This document shows, piece by piece, positions 1 to 64,000 of a DNA stretch of 64,000 nucleotides. The stretch's first letter is position 1; each line of letters begins with the position of its first letter. The notes beneath the pieces are model-generated. The model worked only from the letters and a program-made list of their open reading frames with translations, did not search any database and was not told the DNA's origin. The position numbers and the translations under genes were made by a program. The stretch lies in sequence record PZ049338.1, one strand, 5' to 3'. This DNA is from a phage.

Positions 1-791
1 ATTTGCGACTTGTCCAGTCGCCGGACTGATGCGCGCCTGATGGATACGGGGGCGAGTACCTTTTCACTTTACACATCAAATTTTACTCCCCGACTATCTG
101 CGAATTAAAGATTAATCAGTGTTAATTGACGCAGTGACACGCCTCAAACGAGATAATCAACCATTGAAATCAATCAAGGCCGATTAAATAAAACTTGTCG
201 TTGTTGTGCTACGTTGTCGCATTCTTTATATAATCTTTCGGTAGTCTTAGTTGTGAGTAGGTAGAATTTTCATTCATTCGCTATCACTATTCGATTACGC
301 GGCCTCTCGGCCTATCATCTTTTCAATCACTAGCCCACTTATTCTATTCAGTGAGATACCAAATTAACACTATACCGACGCTTAGATGTATAGATGATGT
401 TCTAGTCTGGTTAAATCAGTCTTTACTTTGATGGCAACATGACACGTTGTGTAAACCGCTGGCACTTAAGCCGTCACGCATTGCGTTTTACGCCACCTTT
501 TCAACCTTCCTTGCAAGCCTTGCGACTTTTAAGGTCGGGGCAAACTACTCCGGCTAAGTATTCAGTGTCTTATGTTTCCCACTGTTACCCGCTTTCGTCA
601 ATAAGCCGTAATTTAAAACCATCCGTTAATCAGGTATGATTGCCACATTGTCGGGGGGAAGTATCCGACTGATGTTTACCGTTGGTTATACGGCGGGCTA
701 TTGCCCCTTAAGGTGCGGCCTATGTGGTAGGCTGCCTTTGATGGGTAATGATTAACCTATCCCATCTATTTACTACTGGATAACTAATCTA

Positions 792-813
792 GTTAATCCA
801 CATATATTAAGAG
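792..813 (+). promoter_or_regulatory. Copy D of conserved 22-bp motif GTTAATCCACATATAT(A/T)AAGAG; candidate phage-specific promoter
   Basis: Near-identical 22-mer also found at 21677-21698, 44433-44454 and 63683-63704 (all on - strand); this copy faces rightward toward the late block. Confidence 0.3.
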
Positions 814-1418
814 ATAATCCCTTAATACGTCCTACTTAAAACATTCTAGGTTATCCCTTCCTACCTTGTCAACCTTACTTAGAAAATTCTTTCTTCTGGT
901 TGACTCACCTGATAGTTACTTGGCTATTCAGCTTCACTATCTGGTATGTGGTAGATTATAGGTTTAACCTTTCTACCTTGTCAATAAGATATTTTAATTT
1001 ATCTTGCTGACCTTTACTACCTATCAGGCTTTCGCGTTGTTGCTGCGTCGTCCTGATATGATTAACTATACGCAATCTTTTCAGATATGCAAACTAATAT
1101 TTTAATTATTTTCTAACTTTCTTTCATCTCACTGATTTATAACGGATTATTTCTTGATATTCTTTCTTGATTCAGTGGATAAGATACGGGATACGGCTTA
1201 TCTATCCCATCTATAGCGTCACCTTTCCACCTGGACAAATTGGAACATCAATCACCTTATCTATTCCCTACCTTTCCAGCTCATAGATTCATGCCTGATT
1301 GATGATCTTTCTTGTGAGCTGGAAGCTAAGAGATAACACCGCATGAATTAAAACTAGATAAAGGGCACTAGATAGAAACATGCGGAACGTTATCCCATAC
1401 GTCTTAATTGCTATTACA

Positions 1419-1447
1419 CGGAAGAAAGGAAAGGAAGAAAGGAAGAA
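1419..1447. repeat. Short tandem repeat (GGAAGAAA-like units, about 3 copies)
   Basis: Direct reading: aggaaaggaagaaaggaagaaaggaaga. Confidence 0.6.
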
Positions 1448-1560
1448 AGGAAGATACACCATACGGATTAATGCTTATCAAACTATCGTCGGGTAACGGT
1501 GCAATGATTAAGATTGATGCGACCAATGGTCGTGTTATGACCTGCGGTCATGCGTACCTA

Positions 1561-1722
1561 TTATCAAAGTCAACAATCAAACGATGATTATCAAAGACGA
1601 TTATCAAACGATAACTATCAAAGACGATTATCAAACGATAACCATCAAAGGATAACTATCAAAGGATAACTATCAAAGGATAACTATCAAAGGATAACTA
1701 TCAAAGGATAACTATCAAAGGC
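1561..1722. repeat. Tandem array of 14-bp units GATAACTATCAAAG (5 perfect copies preceded by degenerate copies); iteron-like
   Basis: Direct reading of perfect head-to-tail 14-mers at ~1651-1720 and variants (cgattatcaaa, gataaccatcaaag) upstream. Confidence 0.8.
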
Positions 1723-2843
1723 TGGCATTTTAAACACCGACGTTTTAGCCTCACAAAATAACGGGAAGAAATATAGCTCAGGATACTTACTATTAGTAAG
1801 AACATAACCATGCTGGTTATTATTACCATGCTATCTATGCGATGGCTTATCATTAGGTAGCTAACTATAACATCGTGCATCATATTCCATTGGTATCATT
1901 AGATGACTAATCATGTGCGTGCATAGTATATCACTTGAGATAATAACGCATGAATACTATATCACTTCCCATTATCAGCGGAGGTATATTAATCCCGTGA
2001 ACTAATAGCCAACTAATTACTTATGATATAGTTGCCAATGTTATTAATAGATGAGGTATGGTATCATTTGTATATTAATAATAAGCAAGCTATCTATTCA
2101 CTGGATGCAATTACAGTATTGTGCTTCATCCAATAGGCTGTATAATCGTTGTTACATTGTTAACGGTATATGTGCCGACCCACTTCCCCCTTTTTAAAAG
2201 TTGTGTGCGCAGCTAGCCCCCTATACCACCGCGTGAGAGTATGAGAATGAGGATACCCTAACCAATTAATGGGTGAGAGTGATTGCCCGTGGGTATGACC
2301 TCCCATCAGACAGTACTCATGACCTCCCATCTATCAGTGTCAGTAGAGGCCGAAGGCCTTGGTCTTACCAAAGGTAAGTGACTTCCCATCTATTTTCACT
2401 TTCTTTCAGTGTAAACAGTGTAAATCTGTAAGAAAATTGAAAATTTTGAACTAAAGTTCATGTACGAAGGAGATAGAGATTGATAAGAGATTCTTAAACA
2501 GTTTCTTATATATCTCCTTCTTATCCATTCTTATATATCCTCTCTTCTCTCCTCTATAAAAGCCCCTCTTATATTTAAAAATCCATAAACCAATTACGCT
2601 GAACAAGAAGAAAGTATAAAGGAGGTTATGACCTTCCATCTGATTGATAAGATGAGTACCCATCAACTATTTTAATCTTTTCAGTGTAAGTCTGTAATGT
2701 TTTCCATTTATCAGTGCTATATGTAACTGTAGCATCTATAAGGTTTATGTAATTAATAAATAGATAGATGGGTGGATGGTGGGAACTACATTCGCTGGAA
2801 GCGAAACTATTGCTTCTGGCAATTATTAATTGAAGGAGTGAAC

Positions 2844-19300: not shown

Positions 19301-20387
19301 TCGTGAAGAAGCTAAGAAGACTAGTAAAGCAGCTAAAACCTCTACTCCGGCAGCAACCCCTACCGTTGGTAGAACAATGCAAGACTCTTGGAATGATATT
19401 CATGGTTATGCACAGACACTCGGTGTTGATGCTGAACCTGAAATCCGTAAGGCACTTAAATCAGCCATGAACTCTGGTAACAAGGACAGGGCTAAATTTA
19501 AGGCACTTAGCGAGGCCAAGGAGCGTGAGTTGTACAACAAGGTAGACGACTTCATTGCAGAACAGCAGAAGGCCTACGAGCGTGCTTTAGCGGCTCCTAA
19601 GACCGAACAACCTGCTGAGTTGGGTGAATGGCGTAAGAAGGTTGCAGACCTCAAGAAACGTCGTGCTCGTGTTTCTAACTTCAATGACTGGCAGACTAAG
19701 AAAGCTAATGACCGCAAGGTAGTAGCAGAGAAAGCTATCAAAGAAGAAGAAGCTCGTACTAAGCGTTTAGAGGCTGAAGCTAAGAAGGCTGATGATGAAG
19801 CTAAGGCTGCTGAGAAGGCTATCAAAGATGCTGAAGAAGCTAAGGCAGCAGAGCAGAAGAAAATGGAAGAAGCTGTAGAGAAGGCTTTCGAAGAGAAAGA
19901 TATGGATGCTGATGTTATCGTAGAAGCTGGTTCCCAGTTGTTTGAGAAACTTGCTGCTCGTGTTAACAGTACAGATTCACCTGACTACAATAAGTTGAAA
20001 GCCATTATGACTGTTGTTGAGCGTAACCTGCCAGTTACCAAACTGAAAACAGGTGAACGTAATCAGGCTAAAGCTTTACTGCTGTCCCAGAAGGCACTGT
20101 TCGATGGTCTGGCTCGTAAAGCAGAGTTCCCGAACAATCCTGAATACTGGTTGTCTACAACAGAACGTGACTTAATTGGTGAAGCATACACTGGTAAGCA
20201 AGGGACTAAGGAGTACGGTTCCATGTATCAGCGTCTGCGTGCTGGTCTGTTCGAAGACGAATCAACTCGTGAGTATGTTCGATTCCCTATCGAGGCTCTG
20301 AATCGTAAGATTAAGAATCTTCGTAAGCGTGCTGAGAATACTACTGAACTTGGAGAGGGTGCTATTAACGTTCAGGACATCAAGTAA
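16377..20387 (+). CDS. Large internal virion / DNA-ejection protein (1336 aa), tape-measure-like
   Basis: Size and position comparable to T7 gp16-class proteins; long Ala/Lys/Glu coiled-coil C-terminal region; no catalytic motif recognised. Confidence 0.45.
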   Translation: MNFVTDPKLLEELNAGFNPQGASAPSVDSQTQTAPQEAETNWGIYAKEDGSIMDTIGSGLTRMGRATAAAMVPSDDEDMSDYALARARRANAEYKADAEKLGVAGQVVAGAATYAPVIAAGIANPLAGAAMMGGATTADSLAAQIDNNQDLDLNSAIAAGAASAGVDLATMGLASRGMNVAKELTSPVKRAIAGTGIQATQGATSNAAAQAAINLASGRPWNEGLIEAAAIGGVAGGGLHATLSGLNHSAGTPPNKGGQKATEDQVKFETKDGITPTGDYRNQVYEYANQRHQYDEDINNIDIDDTNGLDAAVNAKVGMALNNGTASAIQGTAKLLDKFKVPKTINFWDMDVGNGISSQPVGNIARDWFNFSDKDLLKAGESIGRAKQTLTGRTKALEQGEFEESFLRQMKDSYDKAQNDILGRAESNWRTVDNIRSQMTGAERPMRDSLNILSRNLEDYSKMVRDANLGKAPNTDTLRAVVESIEVNAKKTGLRDKLKSLVDDAEQFDGITNLESALLFAKGAQKVAPGIHRANPDPLKASSQKADMLDAAAVATGQFWLPVARRGLREIGGKRSQARLRGEKAQGEVVSQSLARDPRPDFVNQAAQRGDFKGAADEAAADLESMGISTGQKDVWGREAEAAPVQETAPIQEAPVTPEPKVDVWGRPREFTDLTGRGVREAEAAKAEAEAANAPVVDPEAEAQIRFNLGERLAQDARVDAQRRAPAPEPEPAFTDKDSRRVDDLQTKQNTDGLTSSEARELESLIQRKPTPEVKEAEPEAPKKEGVKASELARKPISDKIKEFKELSPEAKKDPQLINEFTRNRRLLSDADKAVSSKATAMSVPQEDIWRIIERQGGLESVFKDGHSAERGLNILMQKDKIDLQRKADIEAKNAEDAADSVNTKSGKGETTSTDEVDTGKVIEDMKKDFISKGVSGETFEAAQVRAEQTLGPDYTPTQLANVVKLLAKEKAAKAREEAKKTSKAAKTSTPAATPTVGRTMQDSWNDIHGYAQTLGVDAEPEIRKALKSAMNSGNKDRAKFKALSEAKERELYNKVDDFIAEQQKAYERALAAPKTEQPAELGEWRKKVADLKKRRARVSNFNDWQTKKANDRKVVAEKAIKEEEARTKRLEAEAKKADDEAKAAEKAIKDAEEAKAAEQKKMEEAVEKAFEEKDMDADVIVEAGSQLFEKLAARVNSTDSPDYNKLKAIMTVVERNLPVTKLKTGERNQAKALLLSQKALFDGLARKAEFPNNPEYWLSTTERDLIGEAYTGKQGTKEYGSMYQRLRAGLFEDESTREYVRFPIEALNRKIKNLRKRAENTTELGEGAINVQDIK

Positions 20388-20466
20388 TTGTAAGGTGTTG
20401 CAAATTATGGCACTAATATAGTTTGTGACACACTTGCAGATTCACCGTACCTGAATAGGACTTGAT

Positions 20467-20598
20467 AATGAACGAATATAAACTTCCTTCGAACAAAGAT
20501 AAAGATTTCTGGGAACGTAATAACGAATCTCGGAAAGAAAGCAAAATCACCAAAAAGAAGGGAGATAAAAACCCTTGGACTCCATACCGGAGTTGGTA
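20467..20598 (+). CDS. Small basic ORF (43 aa)
   Basis: ATG ORF not in track (under 60 aa), immediately followed by terminator. Confidence 0.2.
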
Positions 20599-20608
20599 AC
20601 CTTTACAG

Positions 20609-20630
20609 GGCTCCTTCGGGAGCCTTTTTT
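20609..20630 (+). terminator. Rho-independent terminator with UUCG tetraloop
   Basis: GGCTCC-TTCG-GGAGCC followed by TTTTTT. Confidence 0.55.
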
Positions 20631-20649
20631 CGTTTATGGGGTATAAGAT

Positions 20650-21075
20650 TTGAAAAAGAGATATTACAAGAAGAAAGAAGGGTCGTTGAAAGGGACTGGA
20701 TACGACTCCTTTTTAGAGAAGCATGTTCATGAGAACATAATCCCGAATGCCAGATTCCATGATAAGGGAGATAAGGTGTCTTATACCGTTTCTCATACTT
20801 ACGAACCTGATTTCGTATTAGAGAAAGATGGTAAGACTTACTTAGTGGAAACTAAGGGTAGGTTCAGGGATTCAAATGAGGCTAGGAAGTACATCTTTAT
20901 TAGAGAATTCTTACCAGAGAATACTGAATTGGTATTTGTATGGGAGAAGTCCAACACCATATTCCCGTTCGCCAAAAAGAGGAAGGATGGGACTAAAGCA
21001 ACTCATGAGGAATGGGCCATTAAGAACGGCTTTCGGAACTGGGTTCAAACATCATTCACAGAGGAAGTGTTATGA
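20650..21075 (+). CDS. T7 endonuclease I-like Holliday-junction resolvase
   Basis: Matches recalled T7 gp3 motifs: HTYEPDFVL...LVETKG...IFIREF; TTG start in track, true start uncertain. Confidence 0.7.
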   Translation: MKKRYYKKKEGSLKGTGYDSFLEKHVHENIIPNARFHDKGDKVSYTVSHTYEPDFVLEKDGKTYLVETKGRFRDSNEARKYIFIREFLPENTELVFVWEKSNTIFPFAKKRKDGTKATHEEWAIKNGFRNWVQTSFTEEVL

Positions 21076-21491
21076 TTAAGCATATAGCTACATGGGTTAA
21101 ACAAGTTGTATTTGGGGCTGGTATTGTGGCAGTCCTTGGTCTATTCCCACTAGGTTACAAATATGGGGTAGATTCTGAACACATTGCTCAACGAGCAGAG
21201 TATACCAAAGAACTTGAAACCTTAGTCAAACGTTATGACCAGACTCAAGGTATCTTATCAGCATTGGCTCAGGGTCAGCAAGTTTCATTGACCCTTTTAC
21301 GCACTAAACAGGATGGAGTGAAAAGTGACGTTAATAAGTACAATCAAAGCAGTAATGCTCGTATTTCTTGTCTTGATGATGAGTGGTTGCGGGTCTACAA
21401 CAACTCCATTACCGGAGATAAGCATAAATCCGGAAGCAAGGTTGATGGAAAGACCACAGGAAAGGTTAACACTGGAGATGGGAGCAAATAA
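21072..21491 (+). CDS. i-spanin (Rz-like), N-terminal TM anchor
   Basis: N-terminal hydrophobic helix then coiled periplasmic domain; ATGA overlap with upstream stop; contains embedded o-spanin ORF. Confidence 0.6.
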   Translation: MIKHIATWVKQVVFGAGIVAVLGLFPLGYKYGVDSEHIAQRAEYTKELETLVKRYDQTQGILSALAQGQQVSLTLLRTKQDGVKSDVNKYNQSSNARISCLDDEWLRVYNNSITGDKHKSGSKVDGKTTGKVNTGDGSK

Positions 21492-21603
21492 TGGTAATGC
21501 TCTTTCTGTTATCACTGAGAATAACATGATATGTGAAAGAGAGATTAATAAACTCACTGATTTGCAAGATTGGGTGGGGTTATTGAAACATGTGCCTAAA
21601 TAA
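21355..21603 (+). CDS. o-spanin (Rz1-like lipoprotein), overlapping i-spanin in a different frame
   Basis: Signal peptide ending in lipobox-like LMMSGC, mature Cys; classic overlapped Rz/Rz1 arrangement. Confidence 0.6.
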   Translation: MLVFLVLMMSGCGSTTTPLPEISINPEARLMERPQERLTLEMGANNGNALSVITENNMICEREINKLTDLQDWVGLLKHVPK

Positions 21604-21609
21604 GATATA

Positions 21610-21634
21610 GGGGAATATTAATTTCCCCTTTTTT
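21610..21634 (+). terminator. Rho-independent terminator ending the late block
   Basis: GGGGAA-tattaat-TTCCCC followed by TTTTTT. Confidence 0.6.
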
Positions 21635-21676
21635 CTTAAAAGTTTGTAAGATAATTAGAAATGTTAAGTAGAATTA

Positions 21677-21698
21677 CTCTTTATATATGTGGATTAAC
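21677..21698 (-). promoter_or_regulatory. Copy A of conserved 22-bp promoter-like motif, pointing leftward into the 21610-21634 hairpin
   Basis: Reverse complement reads GTTAATCCACATATATAAAGAG. Confidence 0.3.
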
Positions 21699-21831
21699 TC
21701 CACCCTATATAATAATAAAGACTGAGGTTAATTATCAGTGAAATAATAACTAGAACCAGTGGAATCATCCAATTGTCAAGAAAATTAAGTATTGACAGTG
21801 CTATCTTGTTCATACTTTGTAATCCACTCCT

Positions 21832-22551
21832 CTATCGTTGGGGGGGTTTAACTTTCTCGATAGCTGCTCTAAAGATTGCAGCACGGTGGAGTTTATCAGA
21901 TATTTCCGGAGAACGTAACTTAGTCTTTGGAACAATAATTGAGACATAAGCACTATCAGCAGAATCGAAAGGATATTGACTAATTGCCCTAACATCTAAA
22001 GCCCTCAAACCATGAATCTTCACAGGATATTTCTTTGTGATGTAAATGTGCTTGAAAACCTCGTCCATTCGCTCTCTCCAAGCCGGGGAGCGTATAGAAC
22101 GGTGTCTACCAACACAACCTATGGCTACACGTTCAAACCTCTCACACAGCCTCTCAAGACGTTCTAGAGACCCTTCGGAGTGCCATACAGGTACTGCCTT
22201 GCTTAGTAGGTGTTCTGGTAACTTCGCTAGGAGCGCGTCGTTTTCTTCATCAGTGCCGCCAATAACGTCAGGTACAATAAACCACCCGATACGAGCATAA
22301 AGAGACTCAACCCACTTATAATACTTATTCCAATGTTTATCCCAGTCAACTATCTCACCTTTACGATTCGATTTCATCCAAACAGAGAAAGCACCATTAT
22401 CAAGAATCAAGTCACAATCTAATTGAACTATACGCTTAATCTGGTCAGGGCGATGGAAAGAAACAAGGGCTCCACCTCCACGGTAGAGTGCCTTGATTAG
22501 CTCATCACCTTCACCACCCCAAATAGGGCCACCATGAAAGTGTATTGTCAT
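21832..22551 (-). CDS. Hypothetical protein (239 aa)
   Basis: First gene of leftward block; no confident domain assignment. Confidence 0.4.
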   Translation of the reverse strand: MTIHFHGGPIWGGEGDELIKALYRGGGALVSFHRPDQIKRIVQLDCDLILDNGAFSVWMKSNRKGEIVDWDKHWNKYYKWVESLYARIGWFIVPDVIGGTDEENDALLAKLPEHLLSKAVPVWHSEGSLERLERLCERFERVAIGCVGRHRSIRSPAWRERMDEVFKHIYITKKYPVKIHGLRALDVRAISQYPFDSADSAYVSIIVPKTKLRSPEISDKLHRAAIFRAAIEKVKPPQR

Positions 22552-23024
22552 TTTCGTTCCTGTAATAGTTTACGGAGCCTATCAAACTCAGCAAGCATCC
22601 AACCATATTGAGGTTGGTTAATTACTGTAGCATTATTAGGTTGTCCATAATAATAGTAATGCTCAAATGGCAATGTAGATTCAGAAAGCAAGATGCGGAT
22701 ATCCCGATGCTGTCTCAGTTTACAACGAATAGCTGCAAGGATAACTTCCTGATGCTCAAGCTCCATATTACCTCTGGTGTCAATACGGAACTCTTTAACA
22801 GTTTTACCAATACGTTTGGAGCCATGACCAGATGCCAGTCTGAATTCATCAAACTGACAACCAGTTAAGTAGTAATGCCAGAAGCCTTCCATTGAACGGA
22901 ATGAACCATATCCATCAACAATGAAGTCTCTGTCGTACAAGTTAGAAAGCATTCTACCAAGTTCAGTGTGACCTCTTGAGTAGATATTGATGTGCTCAAC
23001 ACCATCCAATGTGGGGTTTATCAA
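22548..23024 (-). CDS. Hypothetical protein (158 aa)
   Basis: ORF coupled to neighbours; weak resemblance to NADAR/YbiA-type fold only. Confidence 0.35.
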   Translation of the reverse strand: MINPTLDGVEHINIYSRGHTELGRMLSNLYDRDFIVDGYGSFRSMEGFWHYYLTGCQFDEFRLASGHGSKRIGKTVKEFRIDTRGNMELEHQEVILAAIRCKLRQHRDIRILLSESTLPFEHYYYYGQPNNATVINQPQYGWMLAEFDRLRKLLQERK

Positions 23025-23269
23025 AACGGAATATCCTCTTCTAACTGTCTACGAACCTCAGCCTCTGACATTTCAACACAGACAGGGCAATACCACTGAT
23101 TGTTGAGAACCGTTCCCCAGCCGCTTGCTACGGCCCCTGTTGTGGTTCGTATGCCACATGGACAAGGGACTAAGCCCTCGTCGTCAAGAATAAGTTTAGA
23201 TTTAGTTTTAGCCACCAAATAACTCCTTCGCCTGCTGTTTAAACTTCGCAACTTCTTCCGGGTTGTCAC
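23021..23269 (-). CDS. Small basic zinc-ribbon protein ending in SSB-like tail EEDIPF
   Basis: CPC...CPVC motif; C-terminus LEEDIPF resembles E. coli SSB tip DDDIPF. Confidence 0.4.
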   Translation of the reverse strand: MTTRKKLRSLNSRRRSYLVAKTKSKLILDDEGLVPCPCGIRTTTGAVASGWGTVLNNQWYCPVCVEMSEAEVRRQLEEDIPF

Positions 23270-27997: not shown

Positions 27998-28567
27998 TTA
28001 ACTCTGGAAGTTTACTGATTCTCTGTCAATGTTAGCGACTAATTGACTTCGAATACGATGGAGACTGACGTAAATGTTATTTGAAGACATGCCATACTTA
28101 TTGGCAACATCTTTAGTCGTGAGGTTCTTCAGGTAAACATCGGTGAACAATTCACGTTCTGATTCCTTAAGAGTCTCAAAAGCTCTCTGAACAAACGAGG
28201 AAGCTTCATCGGCTAGTAACTCACGAACAGGGTCAGTTAACCCATTATCATGGCATTCAAATTCGAGGACATTATCGTACATCTCCGTATCAACTCTGTC
28301 GAACTCTCGGCGTACATAACCATAACGAACATTGTTCGCAATAGTACCTATAACACCGCCTAACTTATCCCACTGGATTCTGTCCCAATACTGCCAAATC
28401 CTTAGCAGAGTTTCTTGAGCCAAATCTTCAGCCAGATGGTAATCTTTTTCCATGTAGTAGAATTGTTTCTGGAGAGGTTTCCAGAACTCTTCGTACAACT
28501 CTTCAAAAGTATATGTTTCTCGTTTTGGAGTAGGGGCACTAATTCTCTTAGCCATCATACATTCCAT
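27998..28567 (-). CDS. Phage-encoded sigma-70 family (ECF-like) sigma factor
   Basis: Region-2-like DLAQETLLRIWQYW and region-4 HTH LTTKDVANKYGMSSNNIYVSLHRIRSQL. Confidence 0.7.
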   Translation of the reverse strand: MECMMAKRISAPTPKRETYTFEELYEEFWKPLQKQFYYMEKDYHLAEDLAQETLLRIWQYWDRIQWDKLGGVIGTIANNVRYGYVRREFDRVDTEMYDNVLEFECHDNGLTDPVRELLADEASSFVQRAFETLKESERELFTDVYLKNLTTKDVANKYGMSSNNIYVSLHRIRSQLVANIDRESVNFQS

Positions 28568-28796: not shown

Positions 28797-29570
28797 TTAG
28801 AACGGGCAATCGTCGTCAAAATCCAGACCTTCATCTGGTTTATTGGTCGGCTTATTGTTACCGTACTTCTGTTCTTCACGAGTAGTGGTATTCTTTGGCT
28901 TTTCACCATCACCACTGTCGGCAATTGGTTCTTTGCCTGCATACGGAATGTGTTGTGCATCTTTAGCTTCTGCAATCACATCACGCTGGAATTTGTAAAG
29001 CTTGGAGTATGCTTGCAGCATCTCAGGGGTATCAATGTAAGGGTTATATGCTACCAGTTCTGAACGTGCTTCACCAACTTTGGACTTGTTTCGAGAAGAA
29101 ACAGCACCAATGGAAGTCACTTTGTTACGCTTCACACCTTTCTTCGTGGTATAAGAACCAACACCGATTGAAACAACTTCATTCAGGCGTTCCATGAACC
29201 ACTCGAGATTACGAGGAACTTCGGTAATAGTTGGGTCAATTGCTTTACAGAGGTCGAATACACCACCACGTTTAGCACCGGGGAAGAGGTAGAAGTCTTT
29301 GAACTGACAGGAAGGGCGAGGGTCGATAGGCTTACCGACTTTATCTTCTTCACCTTCGTATGTGCGACCAGTTGCGTCAACGTCAATAAGTTCAAAAGCA
29401 ATGGTACACTTGAATGCGGGAGCTTTCGCTTCACCTTGCCAATCTGGTTGAGGCTGAACACCTAAGCCAACAAAGCGAACGATACGTGCGTCGAATACAT
29501 CATCTTCAATCGCGTCGTATACAGTGAAAGATTTTTTAGAAGTGGAAGTAGATGGAATAGCAGTAGTCAT
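28797..29570 (-). CDS. ssb: Single-stranded DNA-binding protein with acidic C-terminal tail
   Basis: C-terminus DFDDDCPF matches the SSB-Ct paradigm (E. coli DFDDDIPF); position in replication module. Confidence 0.65.
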   Translation of the reverse strand: MTTAIPSTSTSKKSFTVYDAIEDDVFDARIVRFVGLGVQPQPDWQGEAKAPAFKCTIAFELIDVDATGRTYEGEEDKVGKPIDPRPSCQFKDFYLFPGAKRGGVFDLCKAIDPTITEVPRNLEWFMERLNEVVSIGVGSYTTKKGVKRNKVTSIGAVSSRNKSKVGEARSELVAYNPYIDTPEMLQAYSKLYKFQRDVIAEAKDAQHIPYAGKEPIADSGDGEKPKNTTTREEQKYGNNKPTNKPDEGLDFDDDCPF

Positions 29571-29665
29571 TATTTAATATCCTTATTAATTAATCTCAAT
29601 GTTGAGAGAACTGTTTATATCTCTCGCTCAGTTGTATATAGATTAGTGTAAGATAACTGAAAATC

Positions 29666-30097
29666 TTACATACTTTCTTGCATTATTTGAGAGCGACTAA
29701 CACCATCAAAGTAACAAAAATCGCCCACAATATTGCTATTAATATGGTATACTTCATTGAGGTTCTCACCTGTACGCTTGTGATAGTGATGGCAGATAGC
29801 TTTGTGAGCACAAATCAACCGACTCATGAACGCATACACATGGCTCCTGCCGTATGTACGACCATCCACTGTAGATGATTTCGTATTCACAAACCTGTCA
29901 ACAGCGTCATACTCTATCACTGGTAACATTCTTAGTGCAACAAATAGTGCATTGGTTGATGAAGGGCGGGAATGTCCCGAGTTCGCCGCCCCGTATAACA
30001 CATCCTGCAACCAACCACTAAGTTCATGGAGTTCATCAAAGTTAGAAAACAGGGACTGAATACAATGATTATCTAAATGGACTGTAGGACGTGACAT
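29666..30097 (-). CDS. Hypothetical protein (143 aa), His/Cys-rich
   Basis: ORF in operon context. Confidence 0.35.
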   Translation of the reverse strand: MSRPTVHLDNHCIQSLFSNFDELHELSGWLQDVLYGAANSGHSRPSSTNALFVALRMLPVIEYDAVDRFVNTKSSTVDGRTYGRSHVYAFMSRLICAHKAICHHYHKRTGENLNEVYHINSNIVGDFCYFDGVSRSQIMQESM

Positions 30098-36553: not shown

Positions 36554-37003
36554 TCAGCGACCAGAGCGTACAAAGTATGCCAGCTTGTCGATGGCAGCTA
36601 CTAATTCTTGCAAGATGCTAACAGTCACATCATCCTCTGTATCAAACAGACGAGCCACATGACCAGTTATTGTTTCCAGAGTTTCGACCATATCAGACAA
36701 CATCTCTGAACTGTCGTAGCTGTCAACACCTTCACTGAACCAGCGAACTTCATGATAATACCCTGCCGTTGATTTGACAGGATGCTGTAGGCCACGTAGC
36801 CGCTCAGCAACAATATCAGACCATTCATCAGCAACAGTATCAATATCTTCGAACAGTTTATGGAGACTTCCAAAGTTGGCTCCGGTTACGTTCCAATGAT
36901 AATTCTCTGCCTTGATGGACAGTAATTTGAGGTTGGCAACCACTGGATTCAATGGGTGCAGATTATCTTCACCACTTTGACGTGACGGTCTTGGAGATAA
37001 CAT
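36554..37003 (-). CDS. Dps/ferritin-like protein
   Basis: HWNVTGANFGSLHKLFEDI...DIVAERLRGL resembles Dps family ferroxidase/DNA-binding signature. Confidence 0.5.
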   Translation of the reverse strand: MLSPRPSRQSGEDNLHPLNPVVANLKLLSIKAENYHWNVTGANFGSLHKLFEDIDTVADEWSDIVAERLRGLQHPVKSTAGYYHEVRWFSEGVDSYDSSEMLSDMVETLETITGHVARLFDTEDDVTVSILQELVAAIDKLAYFVRSGR

Positions 37004-38468: not shown

Positions 38469-38684
38469 TTATTTACCCCAATGTTCAACAAACTGTTGAA
38501 ACACTTTACGGTCGAATGTGAAATTACGAGCAATATTACATTCAACAAAAGTAGAGCCCATATAGTCTATAGACAATTCATCAGTGTGACCGTGAACTTG
38601 GATAAGGCGTTTAATCTTATCCTTCTCCTTCCGAGGTAACATACGGAATGCTTCCTGTATGTCTGTAATATGCTTAATTTTCAT
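38469..38684 (-). CDS. Hypothetical protein (71 aa)
   Basis: ORF. Confidence 0.3.
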   Translation of the reverse strand: MKIKHITDIQEAFRMLPRKEKDKIKRLIQVHGHTDELSIDYMGSTFVECNIARNFTFDRKVFQQFVEHWGK

Positions 38685-44424: not shown

Positions 44425-44432
44425 TAAGAATC

Positions 44433-44454
44433 TCTCTTTATATATGTGGATTAA
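44433..44454 (-). promoter_or_regulatory. Copy B of conserved 22-bp promoter-like motif
   Basis: Reverse complement GTTAATCCACATATATAAAGAG followed by AGATTCTTAATG (start codon). Confidence 0.35.
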
Positions 44455-44457
44455 CTA

Positions 44458-63674: not shown

Positions 63675-63682
63675 AAGAATAC

Positions 63683-63704
63683 CTCTTATTATATGTGGAT
63701 TAAC
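63683..63704 (-). promoter_or_regulatory. Copy C of conserved 22-bp promoter-like motif
   Basis: Reverse complement GTTAATCCACATATAATAAGAG followed by GTATTCTTATG (start codon). Confidence 0.35.
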
Positions 63705-64000
63705 TGAACACTAATTAATCACACTGAATCAGTGAAATTAAGTAGGGTGTCTGTCTCTTCCAGACTGTCACACTTAATCGGCCCAGCAGTGAACTGGCTA
63801 TGAGGTCATCAACACGTAATCAGGGAGAAAGGAGGGAAAACCCTGAGAACCAAACAATACCCGCCTAACTTATTAACCGAACTCAATCCACCTTACCCAA
63901 AGGAGGTAGGGCTATGTGGCCTAAGCCACGCGGTAGGATTGCGGTAATTTATAGTGGAGATAAGCTCACTCCACTGGCCTCTTGGATGGAGAGGTATTCT

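What the first reader, a model, noticed from the sequence alone, without database searches (positions are those of the whole stretch)
21600..21700. Promoter-like motif pointing into a terminator hairpin: possible short non-coding or antisense RNA
Motif copy A on the - strand is followed about 50 nt later (in the direction of - strand transcription) by the stable GGGGAA/TTCCCC hairpin. That predicts a ~70-90-nt transcript with no ORF, at the junction where the late (+) and early (-) blocks converge. It could be a small regulatory RNA or a convergent-transcription insulator.
Basis: inference. Interest (0 to 1): 0.45.

Follow-up and report, generated by a model that had tools for sequence, protein, structure and literature searches.

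The report
Orphan phage promoter facing a terminator
A conserved promoter-like sequence in this Salmonella phage has no gene behind it and points straight into a terminator, probably because the lysis genes it once served were flipped to the other strand; it may now make an ~80-base non-coding RNA, but no expression data exist.

Summary
The window is a Grimontviridae phage, ~97% identical to the plasmid-dependent Salmonella phages Hi226 and Lu221. "Motif copy A" is one of four exact copies of TTAATCCACATATA. It lies on the - strand at 21697..21684, after the last - strand gene. The GGGGAA/TTCCCC hairpin (21609-21629) starts 54 nt downstream, and no ORF lies between them.

The unit is conserved. 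In seven relatives the motif-to-hairpin stretch is kept. Between phages 7-11 and pSal-SNUABM-01 it is 88/90 identical, while the flanking coding DNA is 72-78% identical. A 17-nt block predicted to be single-stranded (21645-21661) is 16/17 identical between clades; the spacer just upstream of it is 4/15.

In two other genera (GAP52, Privateer) a same-type motif heads the - strand unit that ends with the lysis cassette. Here that cassette is on the + strand. So copy A is most likely a decapitated promoter left by an inversion.

Most likely product: a 72-84 nt terminated non-coding RNA. Unproven points: promoter activity, which factor recognises the motif (a phiEco32-type TAATCTATA site occurs elsewhere), how well the hairpin terminates on the - strand, and any target. 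This is a plausible new member of a known kind, of moderate interest.

The parts
21670..21700 (-). Motif copy A: GAG-TTAATCCACATATA-TAAAGAGTAATTCT (14-nt core 21684-21697). A promoter-like element with no gene downstream.
   Evidence: Conserved in 7 relatives.
21672..21681 (-). Predicted transcription start zone (inferred, not mapped).
   Evidence: Inference. If TAATCCACA is aligned to phiEco32 tAATGTAtA, whose AATGTA is centred at -11.5 (PMC12276001), +1 falls at 21681. If TATATA or TATAAA is read as a -10 hexamer, +1 falls at about 21675-21672.
21598..21681 (-). Predicted non-coding RNA of about 72-84 nt: a 5' part of about 50 nt predicted to be unstructured, then the terminator hairpin and a U-rich tail.
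   Evidence: No Rfam family matches (best E = 1.5 within this interval; 0.29 for an unrelated hit elsewhere in the searched stretch; all far below gathering scores).
21645..21661 (-). Conserved 17-nt block TTTCTAATTATCTTACA, unpaired in the predicted folds.
   Evidence: 16/17 identical between the window clade and the 7-11 clade, while the neighbouring spacer is 4/15. 17/17 within each clade.
21609..21629 (.). Terminator hairpin AGGGGAATATTAATTTCCCCT, shared by the two convergent blocks.
   Evidence: The homologous hairpin in phage 7-11 is annotated as a terminator on both strands. The homologous hairpin in GAP52 lies between its convergent blocks.
21629..21639 (+). T-tract TTTTTTCTTAA that ends the + strand late/lysis operon.
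21598..21608 (-). U-rich but interrupted tail (AUAUCUUAUUU) for termination on the - strand. It overlaps the o-spanin stop codon.
20462..21603 (+). Lysis cassette: small ORF, internal hairpin 20607-20626, endonuclease I 20650-21075, i-spanin 21072-21491, o-spanin 21325-21603. It is inverted relative to GAP52 and Privateer.
21694..21813 (-). Possible 39-aa hydrophobic ORF whose TAA stop lies inside the motif (TTAATCC). Not annotated in Hi226.
790..819 (+). Motif copy at the head of the + block. It fires head-on into the sigma-70-type early promoters at 872->843 and 984->955.
44428..44457 (-). Motif copy in a 33-nt spacer; an ATG lies 19 nt after the core.
63676..63705 (-). Motif copy; an ATG lies 16 nt after the core.
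27998..28567 (-). Phage sigma factor gene with Sigma70 regions 2 and 4.

Best explanation
Copy A is a still-functional copy of a phage-specific promoter that lost its genes.

In the ancestral arrangement, kept in Crifsvirus (GAP52) and Privateervirus (Privateer), this promoter class heads the last - strand transcription unit. That unit ends with the lysis cassette and the convergent terminator. In the Moazamivirus/Hi226 lineage the cassette, together with its terminator, was inverted onto the + strand. The promoter and the first ~50 nt of its leader were left facing the back of the terminator hairpin.

RNA polymerase starting at about 21681-21672 would transcribe the ~50-nt A/U-rich leader predicted to be unstructured. 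Part of it would stop at the hairpin (21629-21609) and the U-rich tail. The product would be a non-coding RNA of about 72-84 nt. The conserved unpaired block UUUCUAAUUAUCUUACA is the most likely functional part, either as an sRNA seed or as a regulator-binding site.

Shown: the anatomy, the conservation and the synteny. Inferred: promoter activity, start site, termination efficiency, and any target.
For: 1. The motif is a real repeated element. There are four exact 14-mers; 0 of 100 shuffles reach 4.

2. Every copy points the same way as the genes downstream of it. This holds for 4 copies in the window and Hi226, 5 in 7-11, 6 in GAP52 and 4 in Privateer. One copy always heads the late block, and others sit in short spacers before genes.

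3. The motif changes between genera: TWAATCCACATAWW versus ATTATTGCACATTATAAT or ATTATTGCACATAATA. It keeps its positions. One example is the copy upstream of the window 43888-44424 gene, which corresponds to the copies before 7-11 gp094 and GAP52 gp043.

4. AAGAG/AAGGG follows the core even in copies with no start codon behind them. So this part is not only a ribosome-binding site.

5. The orphan copy carries its clade's variant. All four window copies read TTAATCC. Four of five 7-11 copies, the orphan included, read TAAATCC.

6. The unit is constrained. Between 7-11 and pSal-SNUABM-01 the flanks are 72% and 78% identical, while motif to hairpin is 88/90. Between the window and 7-11 the 14-mer core is 13/14 (18/23 over the extended motif) and the block 16/17, while the spacer is 4/15.

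7. The block is unpaired in the folds of both clades, and only the terminator hairpin is shared structure.

8. Synteny supports the inversion. GAP52 copy 30231(-) and Privateer copy 27242(-) precede the small ORF, endonuclease I and spanins on the - strand. The window has the homologous small ORF, internal hairpin and genes on the + strand.

9. The hairpin is homologous to the one between the convergent blocks of GAP52, with T-rich runs on both sides.

10. A sigma factor gene is present.
Against: There are no expression data of any kind.

The U-tract on the - strand is interrupted (UAUAUCUUAUUU), so termination may be partial.

The factor that recognises the motif is unknown. A phiEco32-type site (TAATCTATA; perfect TAATGTATA in GAP52) sits upstream of the phi32_40 homologue, where phiEco32 has a mapped gp36-dependent promoter. 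So the phage sigma may use that motif instead (PMC4331800).

There is no covariation; the six hairpin pairs are invariant.

No target within the phage scores better than those found with shuffled seeds.

Only two clades carry the unit.

Sequence homology of the block to the Privateer leader is only suggestive (p about 0.07).

The same RNA sequence is also the 3' UTR of the upstream - strand operon. Conservation could therefore reflect a role at the DNA or mRNA level rather than a separate small RNA.
Confidence: 0.45

Rival explanations
1. The promoter is active, but the short RNA is a by-product. What is selected is transcription itself. Polymerase that leaks through the weak - strand side of the terminator would make antisense RNA to the spanin and endonuclease genes and so tune lysis timing. 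Alternatively, firing against the end of the late operon would block read-through into the - block (an insulator, by transcriptional interference).
For: - The - strand tail is a poor U-tract, so read-through is likely.
- After the inversion the promoter points antisense into the genes that the same-type promoter transcribes in the sense direction in the GAP52 and Privateer arrangement.
- Another copy of the motif (793, +) also fires head-on, into the two sigma-70-type early promoters at 872->843 (11/12) and 984->955 (12/12).
Against: - This does not explain why a 17-nt block inside the short transcript is 16/17 conserved while the neighbouring spacer is 4/15.
- The hairpin's - strand side is homologous to the side that faces the long late operon in GAP52. 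So it probably has real terminator activity.
Confidence: 0.2
2. The motif is not a promoter. It is some other recognition site, for example an RNA-processing or translation-control site, or a binding site for a regulatory protein. The 21600-21700 stretch is then simply the 3' UTR and terminator of the - strand operon. Any small RNA would arise by processing.
For: - In three of the four - strand copies with genes, the motif abuts the Shine-Dalgarno sequence and start codon, 16-19 nt away.
- A phiEco32-type consensus exists elsewhere, at the P40-equivalent site.
- A published analysis of 7-11 proposed a different sigma motif (PMC4331800).
- The consensus scan finds no sigma-70-type -35/-10 pair at copy A.
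Against: - Copies at the head of the late block and at the junction have no start codon behind them, yet keep the full motif including AAGAG.
- No conserved RNA structure includes the motif.
- All copies contain a TATAAT-like hexamer at a fixed position.
- The mapped phiEco32 promoter P6 is just as close to its start codon, 11 nt from motif to ATG.
- The published 7-11 motif (TGATGTTATA) is absent from the equivalent non-coding region of this window.
Confidence: 0.2
3. Copy A is a functionless relic of the inversion. It has not yet decayed, or it is kept similar to the other copies by gene conversion.
For: - An inversion origin is likely.
- The orphan carries the same clade-specific variant as the other copies, which concerted evolution could also produce.
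Against: - Spacer 1 between the two clades is at random-level identity (4/15), so there has been time to decay.
- Yet the core is 13/14 and the block 16/17.
- Within the 7-11 clade the unit is 88/90 identical against 72-78% in the coding flanks.
- Gene conversion from other copies cannot explain the conserved block, which is unique in the genome.
Confidence: 0.1

Closest known systems
phiEco32 gp36-dependent middle/late promoters (single element tAATGTAtA; AATGTA centred at -11.5)
   Same: - The phage is related and encodes a homologous ECF-like sigma (41% identity over the N-terminal region).
- Both are single-element promoters in low copy number, with no evident -35.
- Both can abut the start codon, as at phiEco32 P6.
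- TAATCCACA matches TAATGTATA at 6 of 9 positions (PMC12276001, PMC4281155, PMC4331800).
   Different: - The core differs (CCACA instead of GTATA), and the conserved stretch is much longer, about 25-30 nt.
- A closer match to the phiEco32 consensus (TAATCTATA) exists elsewhere in the window, at the P40-equivalent site.
- So this motif may be a separate promoter class with a different cognate factor.
Short phage RNAs made from their own promoter and ended by a nearby terminator: lambda OOP RNA (77 nt), P22 sar RNA, lambda 6S RNA (from my own knowledge)
   Same: The architecture is a promoter, then a few tens of nucleotides, then an intrinsic terminator, with no ORF, at or near a convergent junction. 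The size class is the same (about 70-90 nt, except the roughly 190-nt lambda 6S RNA).
   Different: - OOP and sar act as antisense RNAs to a gene they overlap. Here the overlap with the convergent o-spanin ORF is only about 6 nt plus the shared hairpin.
- There is no sequence or Rfam relation.
- Expression has not been shown.
Orphan phage promoters such as T7 phiOL and phiOR (from my own knowledge)
   Same: A conserved copy of the phage's own promoter class with no gene to express, retained across relatives.
   Different: The T7 orphans are used by a single-subunit phage RNA polymerase and lie near the genome ends. No such polymerase is annotated in 7-11, GAP52 or Privateer. This copy lies at the internal convergent junction.
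Bidirectional intrinsic terminators between convergent operons
   Same: A G+C-rich hairpin flanked by an A-tract and a T-tract. The homologue in 7-11 is annotated as a terminator on both strands.
   Different: The - strand side has an interrupted U-tract in this window.

Membership tests
phiEco32-type gp36 promoter | Sequence matches the consensus tAATGTAtA | tested here: inconclusive
   TAATCCACA matches at 6 of 9 positions. A better match (TAATCTATA, 8/9) lies at 29637-29645(-), at the P40-equivalent site.
phiEco32-type gp36 promoter | The phage encodes a gp36-like sigma factor | tested here: met
   ORF 27998-28567(-) has Sigma70_r2 and Sigma70_r4_2 domains. It is 82% identical to 7-11 gp047 and 41% identical to the gp36 N-terminal region.
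phiEco32-type gp36 promoter | Transcription starts about 9 nt downstream of the element and depends on the phage sigma | not testable with these tools
   Needs primer extension or in vitro transcription.
Sigma-70 consensus promoter | -35 and -10 hexamers 16-18 nt apart | tested here: not met
   The scan lists no site at copy A. The nearest site (21738->21709, 9/12) is at chance level, 9 found against 12.1 expected. A TATAAT-like hexamer is present, but there is no -35.
T7-like single-subunit RNA polymerase promoter | A phage-encoded single-subunit RNA polymerase | tested here: not met
   No such gene is annotated in 7-11, GAP52 or Privateer. The window has no - strand ORF longer than 663 aa.
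Intrinsic terminator | G+C-rich stem-loop followed by a U-tract | tested here: met
   + strand: 7-bp stem then TTTTTTCTT. - strand: the same stem, with 5 U in the 8-nt scoring window that starts one base after the stem, so it passes the scan rule but is weak.
Trans-acting small RNA | Own promoter and own terminator, no ORF | tested here: inconclusive
   Terminator and lack of an ORF are met. The promoter is inferred only.
Trans-acting small RNA | Conserved single-stranded seed | tested here: met
   The 17-nt block is 16/17 identical between clades and unpaired in the folds.
Trans-acting small RNA | Complementary target | tested here: inconclusive
   Targets within the phage score no better than those of shuffled seeds (best -25.6 kcal/mol against -23 to -32). 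A partial match in the late leader ranks only in the top 2-3%. Host and plasmid targets could not be searched.
Any Rfam family | Score at or above the gathering threshold | tested here: not met
   Best match overlapping the unit is SIB_RNA at 17.1 bits against a threshold of 56, E = 1.5.
Cis-antisense RNA (OOP or sar type) | Substantial overlap with the convergent gene | tested here: not met
   If terminated, the RNA overlaps only the stop-codon region of the o-spanin ORF (21598-21603). Overlap would need read-through.

The most novel reading that the evidence does not exclude
The decapitated promoter has been co-opted to make a genuine phage regulatory small RNA. Its conserved 17-nt seed would target a host or conjugative-plasmid mRNA; these phages depend on plasmid-encoded pili. 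This would be an example of a regulatory RNA born from a genome inversion. It would also mean that the AATCCACATA-type motif is a previously undescribed promoter class of Grimontviridae, distinct from the phiEco32-type sigma promoters and from the motif published for phage 7-11.
Probability: 0.12. Interest if true: 0.65.

Novelty: new member of a known kind. Interest (0 to 1): 0.4.

Why it matters
If the RNA is real, it would add a conserved small RNA to a little-studied family of lytic phages that includes plasmid-dependent ones considered for limiting the spread of resistance plasmids. It would also show how a rearrangement can turn an mRNA leader into a stand-alone RNA.

Independently of the RNA, the motif looks like a phage promoter class absent from the one published promoter analysis of 7-11 that the literature search turned up. 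That analysis proposed TGATGTTATA, which is not conserved in this window's clade. This bears on how the early, middle and late programme of these phages is wired. It also offers compact, portable promoter and terminator parts.

If the motif is inactive, the finding is an ordinary intergenic terminator region with a relic sequence.

Tried and rejected
- **Rfam.** A search of 21200-22100 with permissive filters found nothing near threshold.
- **Repeated block?** The 17-nt block was tested as a repeated motif. TTATCTTACA with up to 1 mismatch gives 6 matches against 5.9 expected, so it is not repeated.
- **Targets within the phage.** An RNAduplex scan of all sense-strand windows in the window and in 7-11 gave best energies no better than shuffled seeds. 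A partial complement in the late leader (2427-2443; 7-11 1368-1384) ranks only in the top 2-3% and shows no compensating change.
- **Small peptide.** The - strand frames through the block differ between clades. The + strand 26-aa ORF 21661-21741 has no ATG at the equivalent position in 7-11.
- **Sigma-70 promoter on the + strand.** Reading GATAAT in the block's complement as a -10 gives poor -35 regions in both clades (read from the sequences; not listed).
- **T7-type promoter.** The motif matches 14 of 23 positions of the T7 consensus (my own comparison, from memory), but no phage RNA polymerase gene exists.
- **Published 7-11 sigma motif tgTGATGTtata** (PMC4331800). It has no copy in the window's upstream non-coding region.
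- **More relatives.** The only true relative, L184, is identical to the IMG/VR contig over the unit. The scan of viral contigs added only 7-11 itself and one contig.
- **Other genera at the junction.** Privateer and vB_CsaP_009 have only 14 nt there. GAP52-like phages have the cassette on the other strand.
- **Leader homology.** GAP52 regions gave no significant match apart from AAGAGTAATTCT, which is part of the general motif. The Privateer leader gave p about 0.07.
- **Covariation in the hairpin.** None; all six pairs are invariant.

Full report
**What the window is.** The stretch 20400-23100 is 97.6% and 97.3% identical to the Salmonella phages PKM.Hi.22.6 (Hi226) and PKM.Lu.22.1 (Lu221), and about 74% identical to Salmonella phage 7-11 and its close relatives. 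All are Grimontviridae. Hi226 and Lu221 are plasmid-dependent phages (PMC10782986). The structural, packaging and lysis genes lie on the + strand up to 21603. From 21832 to the end of the window the genes lie on the - strand.

The family shares the transcription scheme of phiEco32:
- host sigma-70 promoters for early genes;
- a phage sigma (gp36) that recognises the single element tAATGTAtA, with AATGTA centred at -11.5, for middle and late genes (PMC12276001, PMC4281155).

The window encodes such a sigma at 27998-28567(-). It has Sigma70 regions 2 and 4. It is 82% identical to 7-11 gp047, 73% to the GAP52 sigma, and 41% to phiEco32 gp36 over the N-terminal region.

**Checking the observation.** 'Motif copy A' is the 14-mer TTAATCCACATATA at 21697..21684 on the - strand. 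The window holds four exact copies: 793(+), 21697(-), 44454(-) and 63703(-). With up to 2 mismatches allowed, none of 100 shuffles reaches four matches. The similarity extends over about 30 nt, AG-TTAATCCACATATA-WWAAGAG-NWAWTCT.

The hairpin AGGGGAATATTAATTTCCCCT occupies 21609-21629. It is followed by T6 on the + strand, which makes it the terminator of the late/lysis operon. On the - strand it is followed by ATATCTTATTT, which still satisfies the scan's terminator rule. Its fold energy is -12.5 to -14.6 kcal/mol, z about -2.5.

The hairpin begins 54 nt after the core of the motif. No - strand ORF of 20 aa or more lies between them.

**Is the motif promoter-like?** Evidence in favour:
- All copies point the same way as the genes downstream. 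Two - strand copies sit in short spacers 16-19 nt before an ATG, and the + copy heads the late block.
- Phage 7-11 has five copies of TWAATCCACATAWW at comparable places. These include the head of the late block and the junction.
- GAP52 (Crifsvirus) has six copies of TAATTATTGCACATTATAAT. Privateer (Privateervirus) has four exact copies of ATTATTGCACATAATA, three of which share a longer conserved flank (ACAAAT.ATT upstream, TA.AAGG downstream). Their layout is the same: one + copy before the late block, and the rest on the - strand before genes.
- So the element keeps its positions while its 5' half changes between genera. All versions retain CACAT(T)ATAAT-like sequence with a TATAAT-like hexamer.
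- AAGAG/AAGGG follows the core even where no start codon follows. This argues that it belongs to the DNA signal rather than serving only as a ribosome-binding site.
- The mapped phiEco32 promoter P6 lies equally close to its start codon.

Evidence of uncertainty:
- The best alignment to the phiEco32 consensus is only 6 of 9 (TAATCCACA against TAATGTATA).
- A much better match lies at 29637-29645(-): TAATCTATA in the window and a perfect TAATGTATA in GAP52. It sits upstream of the homologue of phi32_40, where phiEco32 has a mapped gp36 promoter (PMC4331800).

The phage sigma may therefore use that 'class A' element. The 14-mer ('class B') may then be a second promoter class whose factor is unknown.

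Guzina and Djordjevic predicted tgTGATGTtata as the sigma promoter of 7-11 and did not report the AATCCACATA motif (PMC4331800). Their motif has no copy in the equivalent non-coding region of this window. A full-text search for AATCCACATA surfaced no phage paper among the ten listed of 161 hits.

**Is the unit conserved?** The same arrangement (motif, spacer, block, hairpin) is present in Hi226, Lu221, 7-11, SE131, SeKF_80, pSal-SNUABM-01 and one IMG/VR contig.

| Comparison | Segment | Identity |
|---|---|---|
| 7-11 vs pSal-SNUABM-01 | upstream coding flank | 72% |
| 7-11 vs pSal-SNUABM-01 | downstream coding flank | 78% |
| 7-11 vs pSal-SNUABM-01 | motif to hairpin | 88/90 |
| window vs 7-11 | extended motif (14-mer core 13/14) | 18/23 |
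| window vs 7-11 | spacer after the motif | 4/15 |
| window vs 7-11 | 17-nt block TTTCTWATTATCTTACA | 16/17 |
| window vs 7-11 | hairpin | 14/21 |

The window clade and the 7-11 clade share no detectable homology upstream of the motif. The hairpin is retained in both, with a 3-nt indel.

The orphan copy carries its clade's variant of the motif. All four window copies read TTAATCC. Four of five 7-11 copies, the orphan included, read TAAATCC. This is what one expects if the orphan is still recognised by the same factor as the other copies.

In the folds of both clades the first ~50 nt, the block included, are largely unpaired; the 7-11 version has one weak 5' stem that is not shared. Only the terminator hairpin is common structure. 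Its six pairs are invariant, so there is no covariation evidence.

**Where it came from.** In GAP52 the - strand block ends as follows: motif copy (30231), PnuC, small ORF gp086, hairpin, endonuclease I, Rz/Rz1, terminator. It converges on the last structural gene. Privateer is the same without PnuC: motif copy 27242, a leader of about 150 nt, small ORF, annotated terminator, endonuclease, spanins, terminator.

The window has the homologous cassette on the + strand, at the end of the late block:
- The small ORF reads MNEYKLPSNKDKDFWERNNESRKESKITKKKGDKNPWTPYRSW. GAP52 gp086 reads MKVKDYNEERWERSSESNKERKIAKKRFKEKHNPWASLSNKK.
- The same internal hairpin is present: GGGCTCCTTCGGGAGCC in the window, GGGCTGCCTTCGGGCGGCC in GAP52.
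- Endonuclease I (Pfam PF05367) and the spanins follow.
- The terminal hairpin with the spanin 3' end is the same unit in GAP52 and 7-11, in opposite orientation relative to the flanks.

The simplest reading is an inversion of the cassette, terminator included, in the Moazamivirus/Hi226 lineage. That would leave the promoter and the first ~50 nt of the leader behind.

Sequence support for homology of the leaders is weak. The 7-11 stretch TTTTCTTATTATCTTACACTGT resembles the Privateer stretch TTTTCTATTTAATTCTACACTGT with p about 0.07 by shuffling. The GAP52 comparisons were not significant apart from the general motif tail. The inversion therefore rests mainly on synteny.

**Most likely mechanism.** Polymerase starts at about 21681-21672. 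This zone is inferred from the phiEco32 register or from a -10 reading. It then transcribes the A/U-rich leader. Part of it terminates at the hairpin, giving a non-coding RNA of 72-84 nt. That sequence is also the 3' end of the upstream - strand operon.

The conserved unpaired block is the best candidate for the functional part. I could not find what it acts on. Targets within the phage score no better than those found with shuffled seeds. Host and plasmid transcriptomes could not be searched with the tools available. No Rfam family matches.

**Rival explanations.**
1. Transcription itself is what is selected, through antisense read-through over the lysis genes or interference with late-operon read-through. 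Support comes from the weak - strand U-tract, and from another copy (793+) that also fires head-on into the two strong sigma-70-type early promoters at 872->843 and 984->955. This rival does not explain the conserved block.
2. The motif is not a promoter.
3. The unit is a decaying relic. The conservation figures argue against this.

**Comparison with known systems, and verdict.** In architecture this resembles short promoter-to-terminator phage RNAs (lambda OOP, P22 sar, lambda 6S) and orphan phage promoters (T7 phiOL and phiOR); these comparisons come from my own knowledge. It is not a member of any described RNA family. Its membership in the phiEco32 promoter family is unresolved.

I rate it a plausible new member of a known kind, with interest 0.4.

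Noticed in passing
window 29600-29670 (- strand); GAP52 36790-36840; 7-11 38482-38585: A phiEco32-type promoter-like site lies upstream of the phi32_40 homologue: TAATCTATA in the window and a perfect TAATGTATA in GAP52. In the window it is preceded by the perfect hairpin TGTAAGAT-N8-ATCTTACA. It is followed by a leader hairpin whose stem differs between phages while pairing is kept: GAGAGA/TCTCTC, GAAGAG/CTCTTC and GAAGG/CCTTC. This suggests two phage-specific promoter classes in this family.
   Followed up: partly
window 790-990: The + strand motif copy (793-819) faces two near-consensus sigma-70 promoters on the - strand: 984->955, TTGACA-18-TATAAT, 12/12; and 872->843, 11/12. The predicted 5' ends would overlap by about 20-27 nt. 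The same layout occurs in 7-11. It could mean that the later promoter interferes with early transcription.
   Followed up: partly
window 700-2800: A large non-coding region holds several repeat elements. A 14-bp tandem repeat (AACTATCAAAGGAT, 10.9 copies) lies at 1572-1721. Short GAAAGGAA repeats lie at 1420-1454. Four exact + strand copies of TCCCATCTAT lie at 760, 1205, 2325 and 2384. The region looks like a replication origin or packaging region.
   Followed up: partly
window 21840-21846: A homopolymer run of C7 (- strand) where Hi226 has C5 and Lu221 has CCTCC. The gp032-like ORF (annotated by homology as queuine tRNA-ribosyltransferase-like in relatives) therefore ends at 21832, giving 239 aa instead of the 254 aa annotated in Hi226. 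This is either a real frameshift variant or a sequencing error.
   Followed up: partly
window 21694-21813 (- strand): A 39-aa hydrophobic ORF (MNKIALSILNFLDNWMIPLVLVIISLIINLSLYYYIGWS) with GGAG 9 nt upstream of its start. Its TAA stop lies inside the motif. It is not annotated in Hi226 and is absent from 7-11, which has a different gene (gp031) there.
   Followed up: no
window 20387-20470 (+); 7-11 29208-29282: Upstream of the small lysis ORF, the elements TAATTGTAAGG and G(G/T)CACTAATATA are conserved between the window and 7-11. ACTAATATA also occurs in the distal leader of Privateer. This may be the other inversion junction, or a promoter of the cassette's own.
   Followed up: partly
window 20607-20626 (+): A terminator-like hairpin (AGGGCTCCTTCGGGAGCCTT followed by TTTTCG) lies between the small lysis ORF and endonuclease I. 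It is conserved in GAP52 and annotated as a terminator in Privateer. It may attenuate transcription within the lysis cassette.
   Followed up: no
7-11 (L003) 844-1102 compared with window 1-2800: The sigma promoter motif published for 7-11 (tgTGATGTtata, four copies; PMC4331800) has no counterpart in the equivalent region of this window. In 7-11 the copies lie within palindromic repeats. So that prediction is not supported by conservation in this clade.
   Followed up: partly
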